This document shows positions 6,563-48,555 of a stretch of DNA of 55,735 bases, in pieces. The stretch is from an uncultured Planctomycetales bacterium. GTDB taxonomy: Bacteria > Omnitrophota > Gorgyraeia > Gygaellales > Profunditerraquicolaceae. Below the pieces are notes generated by a model, which was not told the origin of the DNA, did no database searches, and saw only the letters and a list, made by a program, of their open reading frames with translations. Positions within the stretch are counted from its first letter, which is position 1. The number at the start of each line of letters is the position of its first letter. A program made the translations under genes and the position numbers. The stretch lies in assembly GCA_964582765.1 (NCBI GenBank), contig CAZOSW010000002.1, positions 15,041 through 70,775 on the forward strand, in the 5' to 3' direction.

Positions 6563-7497
6563 TACGGAATAAGGGAAGAGTCCTAATTACCGGTGGAGCA
6601 GGTTTTATTGGTTCGCATTTATGCGAGAAGCTGCTTTGCGAAAATTATTCGGTAATATGCCTTGATAATTTTATCACTGGTTGCTTAGGAAATATTAAAT
6701 CATTCTTGAATAATAAGAATTTTCGTTTAGAAGTTTGTAATGTTTCAAATTATATTGATATCCCGGGTAAAATAGATTATGTCTTGCATTGTGCTTCACT
6801 GGCTTCCCCGAATGATTATTTAGATTTTCCGATACAAACATTAAAGGTTGGTTCTTTGGGTACGCATAATGCCTTAGGATTAGCTAAACAGAAGAAGGCT
6901 GTTTTTATTCTTTTTTCAACTTCTGAAGTTTATGGGGATCCTTTGGACCACCCGCAAAAAGAAACTTACTGGGGGCATGTTAATCCTGTCGGCGTGCGAG
7001 GCTGTTACGATGAATCCAAGCGCTTTGCCGAAGCTATCACTATGGCATATCATCGTGTGCATAAATTAGACACAAAAATCGTACGTATTTTTAATACATA
7101 TGGTCCTAAGATGCGCCATAATGATGGTAGGGTGGTTCCTAATTTCATTGATAATGCTTTAAAAAATAAACCATTAATGGTCTATGGGAAAGGCCTGCAG
7201 ACCAGGAGTTTTTGCTATATAGATGATCTAATCGATGGGTTATTGCGGTTGATGCTGATCCGGGAAAATGAACCGGTGAATTTAGGTAATCCTGATGAGT
7301 CTACTATTATGCAGTTAGTAGGATTAATTTTAAAATTAACTGGTTCTAAAAGCAAGATACTATTTAAGAAATTACCCCAAGACGATCCGCAGAAACGTCG
7401 ACCTGATATTACAAAAGCTAGGAAAATTCTTGATTGGAAGCCAAAAGTACCATTAAACGAAGGCCTCAGGCGGACCATTTCTTGGTTTAAGGGCTAA
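6559..7497 (+). CDS. uxs: UDP-glucuronate decarboxylase (UDP-xylose synthase), extended SDR
   Basis: 312 aa with [13 protein letters not shown] motif and YDESK catalytic motif. Located next to ugd. Confidence 0.85.
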
Positions 7498-7527
7498 ATT
7501 ACCCCATTTTTAAGATTGAGGGTAGGG

Positions 7528-15453: not shown

Positions 15454-15527
15454 GGGCCCATAGCTCAGTCGGTTAGAGCAGTTGACTCATAATCAATTGG
15501 TCCGGGGTTCGAGTCCCTGTGGGCCCA
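15454..15527 (+). tRNA. tRNA with CAT anticodon (elongator Met, or Ile2 if lysidinylated)
   Basis: 74-nt cloverleaf drawn by hand: acceptor GGGCCCA/TGGGCCC, anticodon loop CTCATAA, T-loop TTCGAGT. No encoded CCA. Anticodon arm resembles ileX-type tRNAs. Confidence 0.9.
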
Positions 15528-15646
15528 GTTGATAAATTAAAGGCTCATAGTTTTACGCCCGGACCAAAAGGGGTGTGGGGAAGTATTCCCCACGTATTTG
15601 GGGTAACAGCGAAGCGTTGGGGAGCGACGAGCTGGCGAGGAGCGAC

Positions 15647-15677
15647 AGGTCCGGGGTTGGAGTTCCTGTGGGGCCCA
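15647..15677 (+). repeat. Decayed copy of the 3' end (T-arm plus acceptor strand) of the tRNA at 15454
   Basis: aggtccggggttggagttcctgtggggccca versus the genuine tggtccggggttcgagtccctgtgggccca (15498-15527): three substitutions and one inserted g. Confidence 0.75.
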
Positions 15678-15694
15678 GTATTAATCAGGCTTTT

Positions 15695-16510: not shown

Positions 16511-16968
16511 ATCATTTAGAAATTTATATCGATGGCGCCTCAAAAGGTAATCCAGGTAAAAGCGGAGTTGGTGTTGTAATTTATTGCGATAATCAGCTGA
16601 TTAAAAATATTTCAAGTTATATAGGCTTTACTACGAATAACGTAGCTGAATATACAGCTCTTATATATGCTCTTGAAGAAGCACTACTATTAAAAGCTAA
16701 TAGTTTAAAGATTAACACAGACAGTCAGCTTTTAGCTAGGCAACTTAATAAAATCTATAAAGTCAAGAATGAAGGTATAATAAATTTATATAATAGGGCA
16801 GTACATCTTTTATCGGGTTTCGAGAAAGTATTGGTCAATCATATTCCGCGGGAGAAAAATGCCTTAGCGGATAAATTAGCAACAGAGGCAATTAAAAAGC
16901 AGGCAGAATGTGGCTGCCCGCCACGATTAGTGGCGGGAGGAAAGTCCGGGCTCCAGAGGATAACGTAA
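16507..16968 (+). CDS. rnhA: Ribonuclease HI family protein; the last ~23 codons read into rnpB
   Basis: 153 aa with IYIDGASKGNPGKSGVGVV, NNVAEYTALIYALEEA and DSQLLARQLN in the order of the RNase H catalytic motif blocks. The homologous part appears to end near ...ATEAIKKQ. Confidence 0.8.
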   Translation: MNHLEIYIDGASKGNPGKSGVGVVIYCDNQLIKNISSYIGFTTNNVAEYTALIYALEEALLLKANSLKINTDSQLLARQLNKIYKVKNEGIINLYNRAVHLLSGFEKVLVNHIPREKNALADKLATEAIKKQAECGCPPRLVAGGKSGLQRIT

Positions 16969-17345
16969 CGGGTAACTCCCGTCTTTCGGCGTAAGCCGAA
17001 ACGGATTAGAGCCACAGAGACGAGTAACAGTCTTAGGTTGTGATGAGTAAGAGCTCAAGTCCCACTACCGTGGGTTTTGGGGTCATCTCGCAGCCTTTGG
17101 CTGTGAGATGAAACGAGGCAATCTCTGCGTGGAGCAAGGTAGAATAAGGGATGAGTGCTGATCCGGCACGATTCTTGCCAGTTATTAGGTATTCTGGCGG
17201 GATCCCGTTTTTTCGGGATGAATCCCGGGTAAACTGCTAAAGTTTTCGCGGTAACGCGAGAATTGAGAGGAATGGCCACTGAGATATGGTATTCGCCTGC
17301 CTGCCGGCAGGCAGGTATCAAAACAGAACCCGGCTTATTCTGCCT
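16901..17345 (+). ncRNA. rnpB: RNase P RNA, bacterial type A
   Basis: P1 aggcagaat/attctgcct, P3 cccgccac-gatta-gtggcggg, universal GGAGGAAAGTCCGGGCTCC and 3' ACAGAACCCGGCTTAT. Followed by a T-run. Confidence 0.9.
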
Positions 17346-17416
17346 GTTTTTTGATTTTATTTAAAATTTAGTTTTTTAAATTTAGAATTAATGTTTAATT
17401 AAGGAGGGGTAATCAA

Positions 17417-45582: not shown

Positions 45583-46371
45583 ATGTTTATTATCGGTGAA
45601 CTGATTAATGGGATGTATCCAAATATCGCATCAGCAATTTCTAGACGCGATAAAAAAGTAGTGCAAAAGTGCGCACTGGAGCAAATTGCCTGCGGGGCTG
45701 ATGCTATAGATATAAATTGCGGGCCGGATTCTAAAGATCCGCTGATTGATTTACCGTGGCTTGTAGAAACCATCCAGGAGGCTACTGATAAGCCGCTTTG
45801 TCTTGATTCTAGTAAGCCACGGGTCATTGAGGAAGGTTTGAAGGCATCGAGAAATAAAACTATTATTAATTCTACGACAGCTGATAAGGAAAAGTTGGAT
45901 ATTCTTGTTTTTTTGGCTAAACAGTATAAATCCAAGTTAATCGGGATTACAATCAGCCAAAAGGGTATCCCGCAAAATAAAGACCAGCGCGTGGAATTAG
46001 CCGCAGTCATTGTTGCTTATTGTCAGGATAACGGATTCCCTGTTGAGGATCTTTATTTAGACCCAATAGTTTTACCGATTAATGTGGCTCAGGAGCAAAT
46101 AAGCGATATTTTAAAATCTATCTACGAGTTTAAAATATTATCCGAGCCTAGTCCAAAAACTGTGCTGGGTTTAAGTAACATTTCTCAAGGTATACAGGCC
46201 CATAGCTTAATTAATCGCACGTTTTTAACTATGGCTGTTGCTTGTGGCTTGGATTCTGCTATACTTAATCCTAAAGATAATGAACTAATGAACTCATTGA
46301 TTACCGCAGAGCTTATTTTTAATAAAAATATTTACTGCGATTCGTATTTAAAAGCTTACAGAAAAAAATAA
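45583..46371 (+). CDS. acsE: Methyltetrahydrofolate:corrinoid/iron-sulfur protein methyltransferase
   Basis: 262 aa pterin-binding domain (IIGELING, GADAIDINCG, CLDSS, LGLSNISQG). Confidence 0.85.
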   Translation: MFIIGELINGMYPNIASAISRRDKKVVQKCALEQIACGADAIDINCGPDSKDPLIDLPWLVETIQEATDKPLCLDSSKPRVIEEGLKASRNKTIINSTTADKEKLDILVFLAKQYKSKLIGITISQKGIPQNKDQRVELAAVIVAYCQDNGFPVEDLYLDPIVLPINVAQEQISDILKSIYEFKILSEPSPKTVLGLSNISQGIQAHSLINRTFLTMAVACGLDSAILNPKDNELMNSLITAELIFNKNIYCDSYLKAYRKK

Positions 46372-46416
46372 ATTTAAGCTGCAAGTGAAATTCTTGATAA
46401 GTATTGAATAAAAGTC

Positions 46417-46430
46417 TTGGCGGAGTAGCT
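46417..46430 (+). repeat. Orphan copy of the tRNA(CAU) 5' end
   Basis: ttggcggagtagct is identical to 46585-46598 (2 leader nt plus tRNA positions 1-12), 168 nt upstream of the genuine copy. Confidence 0.8.
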
Positions 46431-46586
46431 TGAGCATGCTCCCTGCCTGCCGGCAGTCAGGGAGCATGCGGGCCTGTCCCCTATGCCTGCGGCTTAGGGG
46501 TATTGCGCCGCAGAAGATAAAAATGTTGCGGCTTGATACCTAAACAAGCCGCGTGTACAAGTAATCGATAAAATCAAAATTGATTT

Positions 46587-46660
46587 GGCGGAGTAGCTCA
46601 GCCTGATAGAGCACGCGGCTCATACCCGCTTGGTCGGTGGTTTAAATCCACTCTCCGCCA
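46587..46660 (+). tRNA. tRNA with CAT anticodon (elongator-type Met or Ile2), non-canonical A19/U56
   Basis: 74-nt cloverleaf with acceptor GGCGGAG/CTCCGCC (G1-C72, so not an initiator), C11-G24, anticodon loop CTCATAC, D-loop AGCCTGATA, T-loop TTTAAAT. No encoded CCA. Confidence 0.85.
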
Positions 46661-46903
46661 CTTTAATTATACAAGAGTGGAACTTTCCACTTCGTGGTTT
46701 TCCCGCCTAAAGAACGGGCGGGATTTCGCTAGATGTCTGCCTTCGGCAGACGGTGGGTCCTCAAAAATCCACTCTCCGCCACTTTAATTATACAAGAGTG
46801 GAACTTTCCACTTCGTGGTTTTCCCGCCTAAAGAACGGGCGGGATTTCGCTAAATGTTTGCCTTCGGCAGACGGCGGGTCCTCAAAAATCCACTCTCCGC
46901 CAC
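46644..46903 (+). repeat. Two tandem 121-nt units plus a terminal 18-mer, each boundary being the tRNA 3' end
   Basis: aaatccactctccgccac occurs at 46644, 46765 and 46886. The intervening 103 nt differ at only 3 positions (46732/46853, 46737/46858, 46754/46875). Confidence 0.95.
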
Positions 46904-46935
46904 CAAATATACTGAGTAAGTGGCGCTGTATCTAT

Positions 46936-47018
46936 AGAGGCAGTCCTATGGAGTAGGACCACTCTCCGTCACCAGTGTCACGAGAGGTAGCACCCGGATT
47001 TCTAGGGGGGCTGCCTCT
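46936..47018 (+). other. Structured element closed by an 8-bp helix, containing a diverged fourth copy of the tRNA 3' end
   Basis: agaggcag (46936-46943) pairs with ctgcctct (47011-47018). Inside are the hairpin gtccta-tggag-taggac and ccactctccgtcacca (46959-46974). Confidence 0.55.
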
Positions 47019-47173
47019 TTATCATTAGTTATTCTAAAATTTGTTTAGCAGCGGAGGGACTTGTCATGTTTCAGAGAGTGCATAGATAAGGCTATCATGG
47101 GTAAAGACGGAAAGATAAACGAGATTTTGTGCATTGGTAATAAAGTTATTTAAATTCGGTAAAGAATTTAGGT

Positions 47174-48448
47174 TTATCTTCCTGAGTATTTCTTGGCCAG
47201 TCTTTCGACAACCAGCGATGTAATAATAAATATTCCTGCCTCAGTCAATACTGTTGCAAACGCGGCACCTACGTAAGAGAATTGATAGATCAATATGAAT
47301 ATAAGCGGTAAACCGATAAGCGCGGCGATAACGTGAATTTTTGCGTATAAATCCTGTTTTCCGCAGACGAGCAGAAACTGTATCTTAAAGTTATTTGCAC
47401 CGATAAAGAACACCGCGGCCAGCAATAGCCTCAAAGTAAACACTACTTCTTTATAAGCTACTCCGCAGGCAATCTTAATAATCCAAGGGGCTATAAAGTA
47501 GGCAATAGGCAGGCTGACTATAAAACCCAAGGTAATCCTATCCTGGATCCTATACATTATAGCTATTGCCCTCTGTTTATTCTTTGCAAAAACATTGCTA
47601 ATCCTGGGGAATACTGCACGGGTAAAGGAATCCATAGGGAATGTTTGGATATAATTAGCGATTTTCTCAGCAAGTGAATAATAGCCGGTAATTACATTAT
47701 TGGTAAGTAATCCTACGGCAAAAATCCTGGTGGTAGTATAGGCGTTAATAGATAGAATAGAAATAAAAATATCCCAACCTGTCTTGAGCTCTCTTTTTAT
47801 GGAAGCGTATTTCTGTAAAATAAATTTAATGCGGAATCTCCTGAAGGCAATATATAGACCAAGTATTCCGCTTATTATTGAGAAGAGCGAATTTAACAAA
47901 GGAACCAATAGGAAGTCTTTGGGGCCATTTATAAAGATAAAAATACAAATCGCATAAATTAAACCGCTGATTGCGTTAACCACGGCAATATAGCTCATTT
48001 TTTCTTTGCCCTGAAAAAACCAGACGGGAAATAATGAGCTGCCGATTACTGAACCGAAACTTAAAATATAAACCAGCCAATCTGCTTTGAATTTTGGCAC
48101 AAGATATAATATAGCGCAGAGAATTAAAAAGCTGATCGCGGAGAATATAAGCTTTACCGTCATTACCGAAGAGAACACCTCGTTAGTTTTCTGTTTATGA
48201 TCCCCTATAAGAGAAATAGTTTTTGTTGCCGATAGGCTAAAACCATAGTCCGTCAAGATCATGAAATATTGCACAAGGCTTTGAGCAAAAGCAATTAACC
48301 CGAATTTTTCCATCCCGATTACTCTAATAAGGTAAGGCAGAACAACTAGGGGCAGGATATAGTTAATGCTTTGAAGGCTGGTAAGAGAAACAAAATTCCC
48401 AAGGACTATTTTTCTTTCCTTGTGCGTTATGATCCGTTTTGAACTCAT
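47174..48448 (-). CDS. Wzx-like oligosaccharide/polysaccharide flippase (MOP superfamily)
   Basis: About 424 aa from ATG 48448 (MSSKRIITHK), polytopic with 12 or more hydrophobic helices. N-terminal pattern is typical of polysaccharide biosynthesis proteins. The track start 48502 lies inside the REP-like element. Confidence 0.7.
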   Translation of the reverse strand: MSSKRIITHKERKIVLGNFVSLTSLQSINYILPLVVLPYLIRVIGMEKFGLIAFAQSLVQYFMILTDYGFSLSATKTISLIGDHKQKTNEVFSSVMTVKLIFSAISFLILCAILYLVPKFKADWLVYILSFGSVIGSSLFPVWFFQGKEKMSYIAVVNAISGLIYAICIFIFINGPKDFLLVPLLNSLFSIISGILGLYIAFRRFRIKFILQKYASIKRELKTGWDIFISILSINAYTTTRIFAVGLLTNNVITGYYSLAEKIANYIQTFPMDSFTRAVFPRISNVFAKNKQRAIAIMYRIQDRITLGFIVSLPIAYFIAPWIIKIACGVAYKEVVFTLRLLLAAVFFIGANNFKIQFLLVCGKQDLYAKIHVIAALIGLPLIFILIYQFSYVGAAFATVLTEAGIFIITSLVVERLAKKYSGR

Positions 48449-48482
48449 TCCATATAATTTACACTTTAAGCCCAAAAAAGTC

Positions 48483-48555
48483 AATTTAAATGAGGCCAAC
48501 AACTTATGTCGCTATCGCTCCATAAGTTGTTGGCCGAATTTAATCCTCGCAAGCA
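48483..48555. repeat. REP-like palindromic element, copy 2 (perfect 15-bp stem)
   Basis: ggccaacaacttatg (48494-48508), loop tcgctatcgctc, cataagttgttggcc (48521-48535). Flanks are the reverse complement of those of copy 1. Confidence 0.75.

What the first reader, a model, noticed from the sequence alone, without database searches (positions are those of the whole stretch)
46644..46903. Two near-identical 121-nt hairpin-rich units, each ending in an exact copy of the tRNA(CAU) 3' end
The 18-mer aaatccactctccgccac recurs at 46644, 46765 and 46886, exactly 121 nt apart. It covers the T-loop 3' half, the T-stem 3' strand, the acceptor 3' strand, the discriminator and one more base. The 103 nt between copies are identical apart from 3 substitutions. 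Each unit draws as three local hairpins: agtgga-actt-tccact (6 bp), tcccgcc-9nt-ggcggga (7 bp) and gtctgcc-ttc-ggcagac (7 bp). These are followed by a T-arm-like ggtgg-12nt-ccact joined to the acceptor strand. The c->t difference at 46858 turns a C-G pair of hairpin 3 into U-G, which preserves the structure. Two alternative pairings exist. First, agagtgga in the unit can pair either with tccactct of the preceding 18-mer (8 bp) or with the downstream tccact. Second, ggcggga is a near-copy of the acceptor 5' strand ggcggag, so the unit can also be drawn as an anticodon-less tRNA-like cloverleaf. I see two readings. One is scars of site-specific integration at the tRNA 3' end, amplified by unequal crossing-over. 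The other is a co-transcribed array of tRNA-like structured small RNAs released by RNase P and RNase Z. I do not recognise this as a described RNA family or repeat class.
Basis: partly seen in the sequence, partly recalled or inferred. Interest (0 to 1): 0.8.

Follow-up and report, generated by a model that had tools for sequence, protein, structure and literature searches.

The report
Conserved tRNA-trailer repeat modules in Omnitrophota
The two 121-base repeats after this tRNA gene are real and belong to a conserved family of structured "trailer" modules found after the same tRNA in many Omnitrophota bacteria; they are built like the poorly understood rtT repeats of the E. coli tyrT operon and do not look like scars of virus or island integration.

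Summary
In detail: 2.1 copies of a 121-nt unit, each ending in the last 18 nt of tRNA(CAU) 46587-46660. The repeats are one part of a larger tRNA-derived region (46417-47026). That region holds a pseudo 5' half, the intact tRNA, two "M1" units, one "type B" unit and a terminator-like hairpin.

The organism is a Candidatus Omnitrophota bacterium. A relative with the same gene order has only the plain tRNA. M1 and type B modules recur after the same tRNA in 15 and 28 of 119 species genomes. Every one that could be placed relative to a tRNA lies on the tRNA strand.

M1 is a copy of the tRNA's 3' part. Its T loop is split by a ~65-nt cassette containing an invariant hairpin.

Module interiors are 80-97% identical between species whose linked acsE gene is saturated at third codon positions (40-60%). 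Helices covary and show sense-strand G.U bias. This indicates selection, most likely on RNA.

No integrase, phage attP or Rfam family matches. The cloverleaf reading fails a covariation test.

The E. coli tyrT/rtT repeats have the same architecture. The most likely explanation is rtT-like, co-transcribed trailer RNAs amplified by unequal crossing-over. Their function is unknown.

The parts
46417..46430 (+). Upstream copy of the tRNA's first 12 nt plus 2 leader bases (TTGGCGGAGTAGCT)
   Evidence: the repeat finder family D3, two exact copies 168 nt apart. An extra 5' 12-mer lies upstream of the tRNA in 16 of 108 homologous loci.
46419..46584 (+). Upstream 'U' module: a pseudo 5' half of the tRNA. 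It holds the palindrome GCATGCTCCCTGCCTGCC/GGCAGTCAGGGAGCATGC (46434-46469) in the D-loop position, followed by further hairpins.
   Evidence: Inverted repeat I1. BLAST homologues sit upstream of the tRNA in L034, L108, L018, L113, L038, L039 and L012. Read against L156, L163 and L017.
46587..46660 (+). Intact tRNA(CAU) with no encoded CCA. It has an unusual D loop (AGCCTGATA) and T loop (TTTAAAT).
   Evidence: ARAGORN. Rfam tRNA 59 bits. The same tRNA occurs in at least 119 Omnitrophota genomes.
46662..46782 (+). M1 unit 1. Parts: leader with hp1 (46675-46692); T-stem-5'-like TTCGTGGTTT (46691-46700); hp2 TCCCGCC..GGCGGGA (46701-46723); linker ATTTCGCT; hp3 (46735-46751); GGTGGGTCCTCAAA; then the 18-mer 46765-46782.
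   Evidence: Profile built from 22 homologues.
46783..46903 (+). M1 unit 2, with 3 substitutions relative to unit 1 (hp1 46796-46813, hp2 46822-46844, hp3 46856-46872). It ends in the 18-mer 46886-46903, which is followed by CA, so CCA is encoded.
46904..46974 (+). Type B module, long form: AGTGGCG.., hairpin GTCCTA-TGGAG-TAGGAC, then CCACTCTCCGTCACCA.
   Evidence: Degenerate fourth copy of the 18-mer. BLAST homologues in L030, L015, L052, L074 and L083. Row WIN_B of alignment A3.
46982..47026 (+). Terminator-like hairpin AGAGGTAGC..GCTGCCTCT followed by TTTATCATT, at the end of the tRNA-derived region
   Evidence: Terminator-like site 47004-47018. Fold -22.5 kcal/mol, z = -3.3.

Best explanation
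The two units are 'M1' modules. M1 is one of at least two conserved families of trailer modules (M1 and type B) that follow one particular tRNA(CAU) gene in Candidatus Omnitrophota.

Anatomy (shown). An M1 unit is a 5'-truncated copy of the tRNA's 3' part with a split T loop. It reads: ..T-stem 5' strand + TTT | ~65-nt cassette | AAAT + T-stem 3' strand + acceptor 3' strand + discriminator. The cassette holds the invariant hairpin TCCCGC./.GCGGGA, the linker ATTTCGCT, a variable hairpin, and GGTGCTCAAA. Many units also carry, in their leader, an inverted complement of the T-stem/acceptor 3' strand (AGAGTGGA).

Origin of the tandem copies (inferred). They arose by unequal crossing-over or slippage between the 18-nt tRNA-3'-end repeats, not by integrase action.

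Expression (inferred by analogy with the E. coli tyrT operon, where the first repeat is annotated as the 171-nt sRNA RttR). The modules are transcribed with the tRNA as its 3' trailer. Cutting at each tRNA-type 3' end would release RNAs of about 121 nt (M1) and about 70 nt (type B). Each would be a compact helix-junction body with a single-stranded ..CCGCCA(CCA) tail.

Function. Module interiors are under purifying selection, so they do something. My best guess is that they modulate folding or 3'-end maturation of the tRNA(CAU) precursor, or titrate a factor that reads the tRNA 3' end. This last step is speculation.
For: Family membership and linkage to the tRNA:
- BLAST of the 103-nt interior finds homologues only next to the same tRNA in other species.
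- The nhmmer census gives M1 52 hits in 39 loci (15 of 119 GTDB species) and type B 47 hits in 34 loci (28 of 119). All 95 hits that could be placed relative to a tRNA are on the tRNA strand, and 93 of them lie downstream of it. Four further M1 hits are in loci with no detectable tRNA.
- 31 of 108 tRNAs have an extra 3' 13-mer within 500 nt downstream.

Split T loop:
- Full tRNA nt 1-56 joined directly to TCCCGC.. is seen in L022, L043, L155, L156, L071, L098, L076, L078 and L130.
- The 10 nt before TTT in units are 63% identical to the host tRNA and follow species-specific T-stem variants in L032 and L051.
- hp2 plus the split T stem are 94% paired. The covariation score is 0.113 against 0.060 in shuffles (0/500).

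Selection:
- M1 interior identity to the window is 91% (L156), 85% (L138) and 80% (L116). The linked acsE gene is 69-77% identical in protein and only 44-47% at third codon positions.
- Across 45 species pairs, the type B interior averages 81% identity (85-97% within the main subtype) against 50% at third codon positions.
- Module identity tracks host relatedness: Spearman 0.81 for M1 and 0.47 for type B.
- The type B helices are 87% paired, with 5 pairs changed on both sides. Covariation is 0.257 against 0.133 in shuffles (0/500) and at most 0.084 in slid controls.
- Sense-strand G.U outnumbers A.C by 34:14 (type B) and 16:4 (M1).

Precedent: E. coli K-12 tyrV is followed by 3.1 repeats of 178 bp. 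Each ends in the last 19 nt of tRNA-Tyr, starting in the T loop. Each also holds the inverted complement GGGGAAGGAT and the T-arm 5' half AAGGTTCGA ahead of a hairpin insert. rttR is annotated on the first repeat (PMC3318445; bioRxiv 10.1101/2024.07.17.603846).

Dispensability: relative L005 has the same gene order with only the plain tRNA and a terminator.
Against: - No transcript data exist. Co-transcription and processing are inferred only.
- The strict terminator scan was uninformative: most loci have no intrinsic terminator within 900 nt. hp1 itself is flagged as a weak terminator-like site, which could stop transcription before the cassette.
- Only hp2 is structurally universal in M1. 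Its stem is almost invariant, with 1 covarying pair. That pattern fits a protein- or enzyme-recognition site on DNA as well as on RNA.
- A global alignment of the tRNA against the unit is no better than shuffles outside the 18-mer.
- The distribution is patchy: M1 occurs in 15 of 119 species.
- The function of the E. coli analogue is itself unresolved.
- Shuffle controls ignore relatedness of the sequences.
Confidence: 0.5

Rival explanations
1. Selfish DNA cassette. The hairpin cassette (hp2 and its flanks) is a small non-autonomous mobile element that inserts precisely, without target duplication, into the T-loop coding DNA (TTT|AAAT) of tRNA(CAU) genes, and related cassettes insert into the anticodon and D loops. 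It sometimes carries a complete replacement tRNA. The 121-nt units are decayed, duplicated products of such insertions. An enzyme that recognises hairpins and is encoded elsewhere in the genome would move it.
For: Junctions are precise, with tRNA nt 1-56 | TCCCGC.. and ..GGGA | AAATCC. Some loci are nested, with a whole inner tRNA inside the cassette (L076, L078, L130, L152). The hp2 stem and its flanking blocks are nearly invariant in sequence. A related cassette occurs at the anticodon-loop position in upstream pseudo-copies. The small palindrome CCTGCCTGCCGGCAGGCAGG is inserted at several positions. Distribution is patchy.
Against: No transposase or recombinase family appears among the 25 most frequent Pfam families matched by the nearest downstream ORFs of 104 loci. 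All placeable copies are linked to this one tRNA, and none is dispersed in the window. Module identity tracks host relatedness, which points to vertical descent. An element confined to one locus per genome has no element-level selection to keep it 85-97% conserved. The sense-strand G.U bias points to RNA.
Confidence: 0.2
2. Neutral by-products. These are partial tandem duplications of a highly transcribed tRNA gene (replication slippage, unequal crossing-over) that merely persist. The hairpins are incidental.
For: Any tandem duplication with one breakpoint inside the gene yields an intact gene plus a 3' fragment downstream or a 5' fragment upstream, which is exactly the polarity seen. Units within an array are 97-100% identical. 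Close relatives lack them. A second tRNA in the window shows a similar trailing partial copy.
Against: Non-tRNA interiors are 80-97% identical between species whose synonymous sites are saturated. Helices keep pairing through changes on both sides. The same module types recur in dozens of species.
Confidence: 0.12
3. Integration scars. These are attL/attR remnants of tyrosine-integrase elements that target the T loop to 3' end of tRNA(CAU), later deleted down to about 100 nt and amplified.
For: The duplicated segment starts in the T loop and runs to the 3' end, which is the classic identity block for integrases that target the T loop (established knowledge). All repeats are direct.
Against: No integrase lies in the window's flanks. 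No Phage_integrase family appears among the 25 most frequent Pfam families from 104 loci. In IMG/VR the 18-mer has one chance hit inside a 702-aa ORF, and the cassette pattern has no hits. Units are conserved and covary. Junctions of tRNA nt 1-56 to the cassette are not what attL looks like.
Confidence: 0.05
4. tRNA-like cloverleaf small RNAs. Each unit folds as an anticodon-less tRNA mimic (ggcggga as the acceptor 5' strand) and is excised by RNase P and RNase Z (the specific form of the reader's reading 2).
For: In the window, ggcggga can pair 6 of 7 positions with ctccgcc. A T-arm-like hairpin is in the MFE.
Against: Across 22 homologues this acceptor pairing is 76% paired but no better than shuffles (268/500) and has no real covariation. 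The ggcggga strand is always paired in hp2 instead, at 98%. The Rfam tRNA model gives no hit to the units even at E<=10. In species with other T-stem variants, GGTGC does not covary with the T-stem 3' strand. The 46875 substitution breaks the T-arm-like hairpin in unit 2.
Confidence: 0.08

Closest known systems
rtT repeats / RttR sRNA of the E. coli tyrT-tyrV operon (Rfam RtT, RF00391; Bosl & Kersten 1991 as cited in PMC3318445)
   Same: Both are tandem repeats directly 3' of a tRNA gene on the same strand. Each repeat ends in the tRNA's last 18-19 nt, starting in the 3' half of the T loop. Each unit also holds an inverted complement of the T-stem/acceptor 3' strand, and the T-arm 5' half ahead of a hairpin-rich insert. 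In E. coli the first repeat is annotated as an sRNA lying 7 nt after the tRNA and ending at CCA.
   Different: There is no sequence or covariance-model similarity. The tRNA differs (CAU versus Tyr), as does the phylum. Units are 121 nt (48-121 nt in relatives) versus 178 nt. Omnitrophota have several module types, upstream pseudo 5' halves and nested tRNAs. No small ORF like tpr is conserved, since unit lengths are not multiples of 3. Expression is not shown here.
3' external transcribed spacers of tRNA operons acting as RNA sponges (3'ETS-leuZ of E. coli; from my own knowledge, not tested here)
   Same: Both would be a functional RNA made from the trailer of a tRNA transcript by the tRNA-processing machinery.
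   Different: 3'ETS-leuZ is a single short spacer with no copy of the tRNA 3' end and no repeats. No target sRNA is known here.
tRNA-gene att duplications left by integrative elements (attL/attR; CIME-like remnants)
   Same: Both show direct repeats of the T loop to 3' end segment of a tRNA gene.
   Different: Here there is no integrase, no element cargo and no attP in viral collections. The interior is conserved and structured, and units are far too small.
Archaeal intron-containing, split and permuted tRNA genes
   Same: Both show insertions placed exactly in the D, anticodon and T loops of a tRNA gene, and gene halves separated by other sequence (L076, L130, L152).
   Different: By inspection the junctions form a symmetric internal loop (TTT/AAAT) rather than a bulge-helix-bulge. 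An intact copy of a tRNA(CAU) is always adjacent. These are bacteria with no known splicing endonuclease. The interrupted copies often lack a matching acceptor strand.

Membership tests
rtT-type tRNA-operon trailer repeats (E. coli tyrT) | Tandem repeats immediately 3' of a tRNA gene, on the same strand | tested here: met
   TRF 46644-46903, 2.1 x 121 nt. Every homologous module that could be placed relative to a tRNA is on the tRNA strand, and 93 of 95 lie downstream. E. coli reference: 3.1 x 178 bp after tyrV.
rtT-type tRNA-operon trailer repeats (E. coli tyrT) | Each repeat ends in the tRNA's 3'-terminal ~19 nt, beginning in the T loop | tested here: met
   18-mer AAATCCACTCTCCGCCAC x3. E. 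coli 19-mer AATCCTTCCCCCACCACCA x6 in the locus.
rtT-type tRNA-operon trailer repeats (E. coli tyrT) | Sequence/structure match to Rfam RF00391 (RtT) | tested here: not met
   No RtT hit at E<=10 in 46300-47250, and none at E<=0.5 in 7 related loci.
rtT-type tRNA-operon trailer repeats (E. coli tyrT) | A repeat is released from the tRNA transcript as a discrete RNA | not testable with these tools
   No transcript data. In E. coli, rttR is annotated on repeat 1.
Integrase att scars at a tRNA 3' end | An integrase or element genes lie next to or between the repeats, in this or homologous loci | tested here: not met
   The flanks are acsE, flippase, tilS and ftsH. Across 104 loci, flippase appears 33 times and TilS PP-loop 28 times, and no integrase family is among the 25 families listed.
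Integrase att scars at a tRNA 3' end | A matching attP is carried by phage or integrative elements | tested here: not met
   In IMG/VR the 18-mer gives 1 hit inside a 702-aa ORF, and the cassette pattern gives 0 hits. Only viral contigs were searched.
tRNA / tRNA-like cloverleaf (Rfam RF00005) | Scores with the tRNA covariance model | tested here: not met
   Only 46587-46660 scores; the units give no hit at E<=10.
tRNA / tRNA-like cloverleaf (Rfam RF00005) | The acceptor stem is maintained across homologues | tested here: not met
   ggcggga x ctccgcc: 76% paired, equal to shuffles (268/500).
MITE / REP-like dispersed repeats | Many dispersed copies in both orientations, with terminal inverted repeats or target duplications | tested here: not met
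   No other copy in the 55.7-kb window. All placeable copies in about 160 loci are tRNA-linked and on one strand. Junctions are precise with no duplication. Whole genomes could not be scanned.
Archaeal-type tRNA introns / split tRNAs | A bulge-helix-bulge motif at the exon-intron junctions | not tested
   By inspection only: TTT|TCCC..GGGA|AAAT forms a symmetric loop plus helix, not staggered 3-nt bulges.

The most novel reading that the evidence does not exclude
Omnitrophota carry a phylum-wide system of 'tRNA genes in pieces'. Cassettes sit precisely in the T, anticodon and D loops of tRNA(CAU) gene copies, sometimes enclosing a complete second tRNA. One possibility is a new class of mobile element specific to tRNA genes that replaces the resident gene. 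The other is bacterial two-piece or intron-like tRNA precursors whose halves are held together by the cassette helices. Under either reading, the 121-nt units of this window are the 3'-half products.
Probability: 0.15. Interest if true: 0.85.

Novelty: new variant of a known kind. Interest (0 to 1): 0.6.

Why it matters
Repeats that end in a tRNA's own 3' terminus have essentially one textbook example, the E. coli tyrT/rtT locus, and its function is unresolved after four decades. This work finds the same architecture independently in an uncultured phylum. There it occurs in dozens of species, with strong sequence conservation and compensatory changes. That argues the architecture is selected rather than accidental. 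It also supplies a comparative data set (two module families, about 100 copies) on which hypotheses about processing of tRNA trailers and control of tRNA maturation can be tested.

The nested and split tRNA(CAU) copies in related loci are unusual for bacteria and deserve a separate study. For annotation, these modules explain assembly breaks and spurious ORFs next to this tRNA.

Tried and rejected
- Rfam at gathering and at relaxed thresholds, on the window region and on 7 related loci: only the intact tRNAs score. The weak speF and HgcG hits are chance.
- Integrase census of the nearest downstream ORFs in 104 loci: none among the 25 most frequent families.
- IMG/VR scans for the 18-mer and for the cassette: one chance coding hit and no hits.
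- Cloverleaf acceptor pairing: no better than shuffles.
- Global alignment of the whole tRNA to the unit, and of tRNA-Tyr to the rtT unit: not better than shuffles outside the terminal repeat. Homology upstream of the T arm is therefore not claimed.
- Strict intrinsic-terminator scan to prove co-transcription: uninformative, since most loci have none.
- Coding potential: ORF 46753-46956 (67 aa, GTG start) spans unit boundaries. Unit lengths in relatives (48, 81, 109, 121 nt) are not multiples of 3, so it was rejected as a gene.
- Metagenome scan with the hp2 pattern: about half of 41 hits are chance matches in GC-rich coding DNA or a 16S rRNA helix. A few hp2-like intergenic hairpins without a tRNA (L129, L136, L160, L162) lack the rest of the module.
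- Control with other tRNAs in the fetched loci: too few (6) to say whether the phenomenon is specific to this tRNA.
- The original rtT paper (PMC329039) is not held.
- Identity of the tRNA (elongator Met or lysidine-Ile2): not resolved. Linkage to tilS is suggestive only.
Full report
OBSERVATION. The repeat is real. TRF reports 46644-46903 with period 121, 2.1 copies and 97% matches. The repeat finder gives two 121-nt copies at 98% identity. The 18-mer AAATCCACTCTCCGCCAC occurs three times against 0.05 expected. ARAGORN and Rfam place a tRNA(CAU) at 46587-46660/61. The 18-mer is the 3' half of its T loop, the T-stem 3' strand, the acceptor 3' strand, the discriminator and one more base. Two of the three substitutions between units lie in helices. 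The change at 46858 keeps a pair (C-G to U.G). The change at 46875 breaks the U-A pair of the T-arm-like hairpin.

THE WHOLE INTERGENIC REGION IS tRNA-DERIVED. The 803-nt gap between acsE (45583-46371, +) and a flippase gene (47174-48502, -) holds the following features:
- a copy of the tRNA's first 12 nt at 46419-46430, followed by very stable hairpins, the 'U' module (46419-46584);
- the intact tRNA;
- the two 121-nt units;
- a 71-nt 'type B' unit ending in CCACTCTCCGTCACCA (46904-46974);
- a terminator-like hairpin at 46982-47026.
The neighbouring genes are Wood-Ljungdahl genes, tilS and ftsH. None is an integrase.

ORGANISM AND BASELINE. AcsE homologues are named Candidatus Omnitrophota. 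A relative with 82% AcsE identity and the same order acsE-tRNA-flippase-tilS-ftsH (L005) has only the plain tRNA. That tRNA ends in CCA and is followed by a terminator, in a 141-nt gap. The extras in the window are therefore additions around a conserved tRNA.

A PHYLUM-WIDE FAMILY. Nearly all are Omnitrophota MAGs.
- 31 of 108 of these tRNAs have another copy of their own 3' 13-mer within 500 nt downstream. 16 of 108 have another copy of their 5' 12-mer upstream.
- The window's 103-nt interior, its upstream module and its type B unit all have BLAST homologues. These homologues lie only beside the same tRNA in other species.
- Profiles built from 22 M1 and 30 type B units (A1, A3) find M1 in 39 loci (15 of 119 GTDB species) and type B in 34 loci (28 of 119). 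All 95 hits that could be placed relative to a tRNA are on the tRNA strand, and 93 of them lie downstream. Four more M1 hits sit in loci with no detectable tRNA.
- Arrays of 2-4 units are common: L021 has 4 x 48 nt, L139 2 x 81 nt, L006 at least 2 x 109 nt and L030 2 x 70 nt.

ARCHITECTURE: A SPLIT T LOOP. In L022, L043, L155, L156, L071, L098, L076, L078 and L130, a complete tRNA 5' part (nt 1-56, through GGTGGTTT) is joined directly to TCCCGC... The cassette ends ..GGGA or ..CTCAAA, followed by AAATCC and the rest of the 3' end. In the downstream units only the T-stem 5' strand survives before the cassette. The 10 nt before TTT are 63% identical to the host tRNA and follow species-specific T-stem variants in L032 and L051. 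An M1 unit therefore consists of:
- a variable leader, often with an inverted complement of the T-stem/acceptor 3' strand such as AGAGTGGA;
- the T-stem 5' strand plus TTT;
- the cassette, made of hp2, the linker ATTTCGCT, a variable hairpin and GGTGCTCAAA;
- AAAT, the T-stem 3' strand, the acceptor 3' strand and the discriminator.
In L076, L078, L130 and L152 the cassette, or the gap between the halves, encloses a complete second tRNA(CAU).

STRUCTURE TESTS.
- RNAalifold keeps only hp2 as universal in M1, with 7 bp and one covarying pair.
- hp2 plus the long-range split T stem is 94% paired. The covariation score is 0.113 against 0.060 in shuffles (0/500) and at most 0.057 in slid controls.
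- The two type B helices are 87% paired, with 5 pairs changed on both sides. Covariation is 0.257 against 0.133 in shuffles (0/500) and at most 0.084 in slid controls.
- The outer type B helix changes together with the tRNA type: GAGAG/CTCTC, GCGAG/CTCGC and GCGAC/GTCGC.
- hp3 of the window subtype changes GTCTGCC/GGCAGAC to GCCTGCC/GGCAGGC in L138 and L116.
- G.U pairs on the sense strand outnumber A.C pairs 34:14 in type B and 16:4 in M1, as expected for structure in the transcript.
- The shuffle controls ignore relatedness, so these are indications and not proofs.

CONSERVATION.
- The M1 interior, excluding the tRNA-derived 18-mer, is 91%, 85% and 80% identical between the window and L156, L138 and L116. 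The adjacent acsE gene is 69-77% identical in protein and 44-47% at third codon positions.
- Over 45 species pairs, the 38-nt type B interior averages 81% identity (85-97% within the main subtype) against 50% at third positions.
- Module identity rises with host AcsE identity: Spearman 0.81 for M1 (10 pairs) and 0.47 for type B (45 pairs).
- This pattern fits vertical descent under purifying selection better than neutral debris or recent spread.

INTEGRATION HYPOTHESIS. The nearest downstream ORF in 104 loci is a flippase in 33 and a TilS-type PP-loop protein in 28. No integrase or transposase family is among the 25 most frequent of the 47 families matched. In IMG/VR the 18-mer has a single match inside a 702-aa ORF, and the cassette pattern has none. 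The junction of tRNA nt 1-56 to the cassette is not an attL. I therefore reject integration scars as the main explanation. Unequal crossing-over between the 18-mers remains the simplest way to make and lose tandem copies.

KNOWN PRECEDENT. In E. coli K-12, tyrV is followed by 3.1 repeats of 178 bp. Each ends in AATCCTTCCCCCACCACCA, the last 19 nt of tRNA-Tyr, beginning in the T loop. The annotated sRNA rttR is the first repeat minus 7 nt. The unit also holds GGGGAAGGAT, the inverted complement of ATCCTTCCCC. It holds AAGGTTCGA as well, which is T-stem 5' strand plus the first five T-loop bases, ahead of a ~66-nt hairpin-rich insert (read directly from the sequence). That is the same grammar as M1. 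[quoted passage not shown] There is no sequence or model similarity to Rfam RtT. This is an architectural analogue and not a family member.

MOST LIKELY MECHANISM.
- Shown: the anatomy; membership in two conserved, tRNA-linked, strand-specific module families; selection on their interiors and helices; absence of integrases.
- Inferred: the modules are the 3' trailer of the tRNA(CAU) transcript. Each tRNA-type 3' end is a processing point, so RNAs of about 121 nt and about 70 nt are released, as for rtT. Each would have a compact body and a single-stranded ..CCGCCA(CCA) tail. The type B consensus folds this way at 91% ensemble frequency.
- Further inference: the inverted complements can pair with either the preceding or the following 3' strand. 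A perfect complement of at least 6 nt to the tRNA 3' strand occurs in 30% of 107 distinct trailers against 12% of shuffles. This suggests a role in precursor folding or 3'-end maturation.
- The function is not known. I put 0.5 on this package.

RIVALS.
- A selfish T-loop-targeting DNA cassette (0.2). It would explain the precise junctions, the nested tRNAs and the invariant hp2 sequence. It lacks an enzyme, dispersal, and a reason for long-term conservation at a single locus.
- Neutral duplication debris (0.12).
- Integrase scars (0.05).
- The cloverleaf/RNase P-Z version (0.08).

CAVEATS.
- All sequences are metagenome assemblies, and the copy number in the window is not independently confirmed. 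L003 breaks at 46661.
- The metagenome scan pattern forced parts of hp2, which inflates apparent invariance there.
- Whole genomes could not be scanned for dispersed copies or for other tRNAs.
- No expression data are available.
- The main Omnitrophota genomics paper does not mention these features.

Noticed in passing
window 15454-15680: The window's other tRNA(CAU) (15454-15527, with canonical D and T loops) is followed 149 nt later by a 28-nt, 89% copy of its variable loop, T arm and acceptor 3' strand (15648-15675), just upstream of tRNA-Val. This is the same 'trailer ends in the tRNA's 3' part' theme at a second tRNA.
   Followed up: partly
window 46587-46660; L005-L124: This tRNA(CAU) has no GG in its D loop (AGCCTGATA) and has the T loop TTTAAAT (no C56). 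The odd combination is kept in at least 119 Omnitrophota species. Whether it is elongator Met or lysidine-Ile2 is not resolved.
   Followed up: partly
L076 (about 7147-7510), L078, L130, L152: Nested tRNA genes. A complete inner tRNA(CAU) of the GGCGGCG type lies inside the T-loop cassette (between TCCCGCCC and GGGCGGGA), or between the 5' and 3' parts, of an outer GGCGGAG-type copy.
   Followed up: partly
window 46443-46460; L017, L156, L087, L140, L163, L076: A small palindrome CCTGCCTGCCGGCAGGCAGG recurs as an insertion at different places in tRNA(CAU) copies: the D-loop position in upstream pseudo-copies, and inside the T-stem 3' strand in some M1 units.
   Followed up: no
L011, L041, L152, L156 (upstream pseudo-copies): The 5' tRNA copies are interrupted right after the anticodon loop (CTCATAC|TTAAATGAGGCC..) by about 100 nt of hairpins. 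The first bases of the insert can pair with the anticodon loop. The insert is too short for a group I intron.
   Followed up: no
86 of about 161 loci; 104 loci in the Pfam census: The neighbourhood acsE - tRNA(CAU) - (flippase) - tilS - ftsH is conserved. The tRNA follows the acsE stop codon within a few bases in many species. The nearest downstream ORF is a flippase (33) or TilS (28). In L152 the module array lies directly upstream of tilS.
   Followed up: partly
L091, L104, L019: The trailer module carries the 3' end of the other tRNA(CAU) sequence type than the resident tRNA (for example CCACTCTCCGCC after a ..CCAGTCGCCGCC tRNA). This implies exchange or replacement of either the tRNA or the module.
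   Followed up: no
L129 (about 1475-1515); L126/L164: An hp2-like hairpin with its flanks (GGTTTTCCCGCC..GGCGGGATTTCGCT) also lies between rplM and rpsI in one metagenome contig, and in a 16S rRNA helix in two others. These are probably chance matches or a generic hairpin.
   Followed up: no
window 16899-17351: Bacterial RNase P RNA class A (163 bits) lies about 1.1 kb downstream of the tRNA-Met/tRNA-Val pair.
   Followed up: no
L003 (ends at window 46661), L002 (ends at 46612): Independent assemblies of the same species break inside or exactly at the end of the tRNA. This is consistent with the repeat array confusing short-read assemblers.
   Followed up: partly
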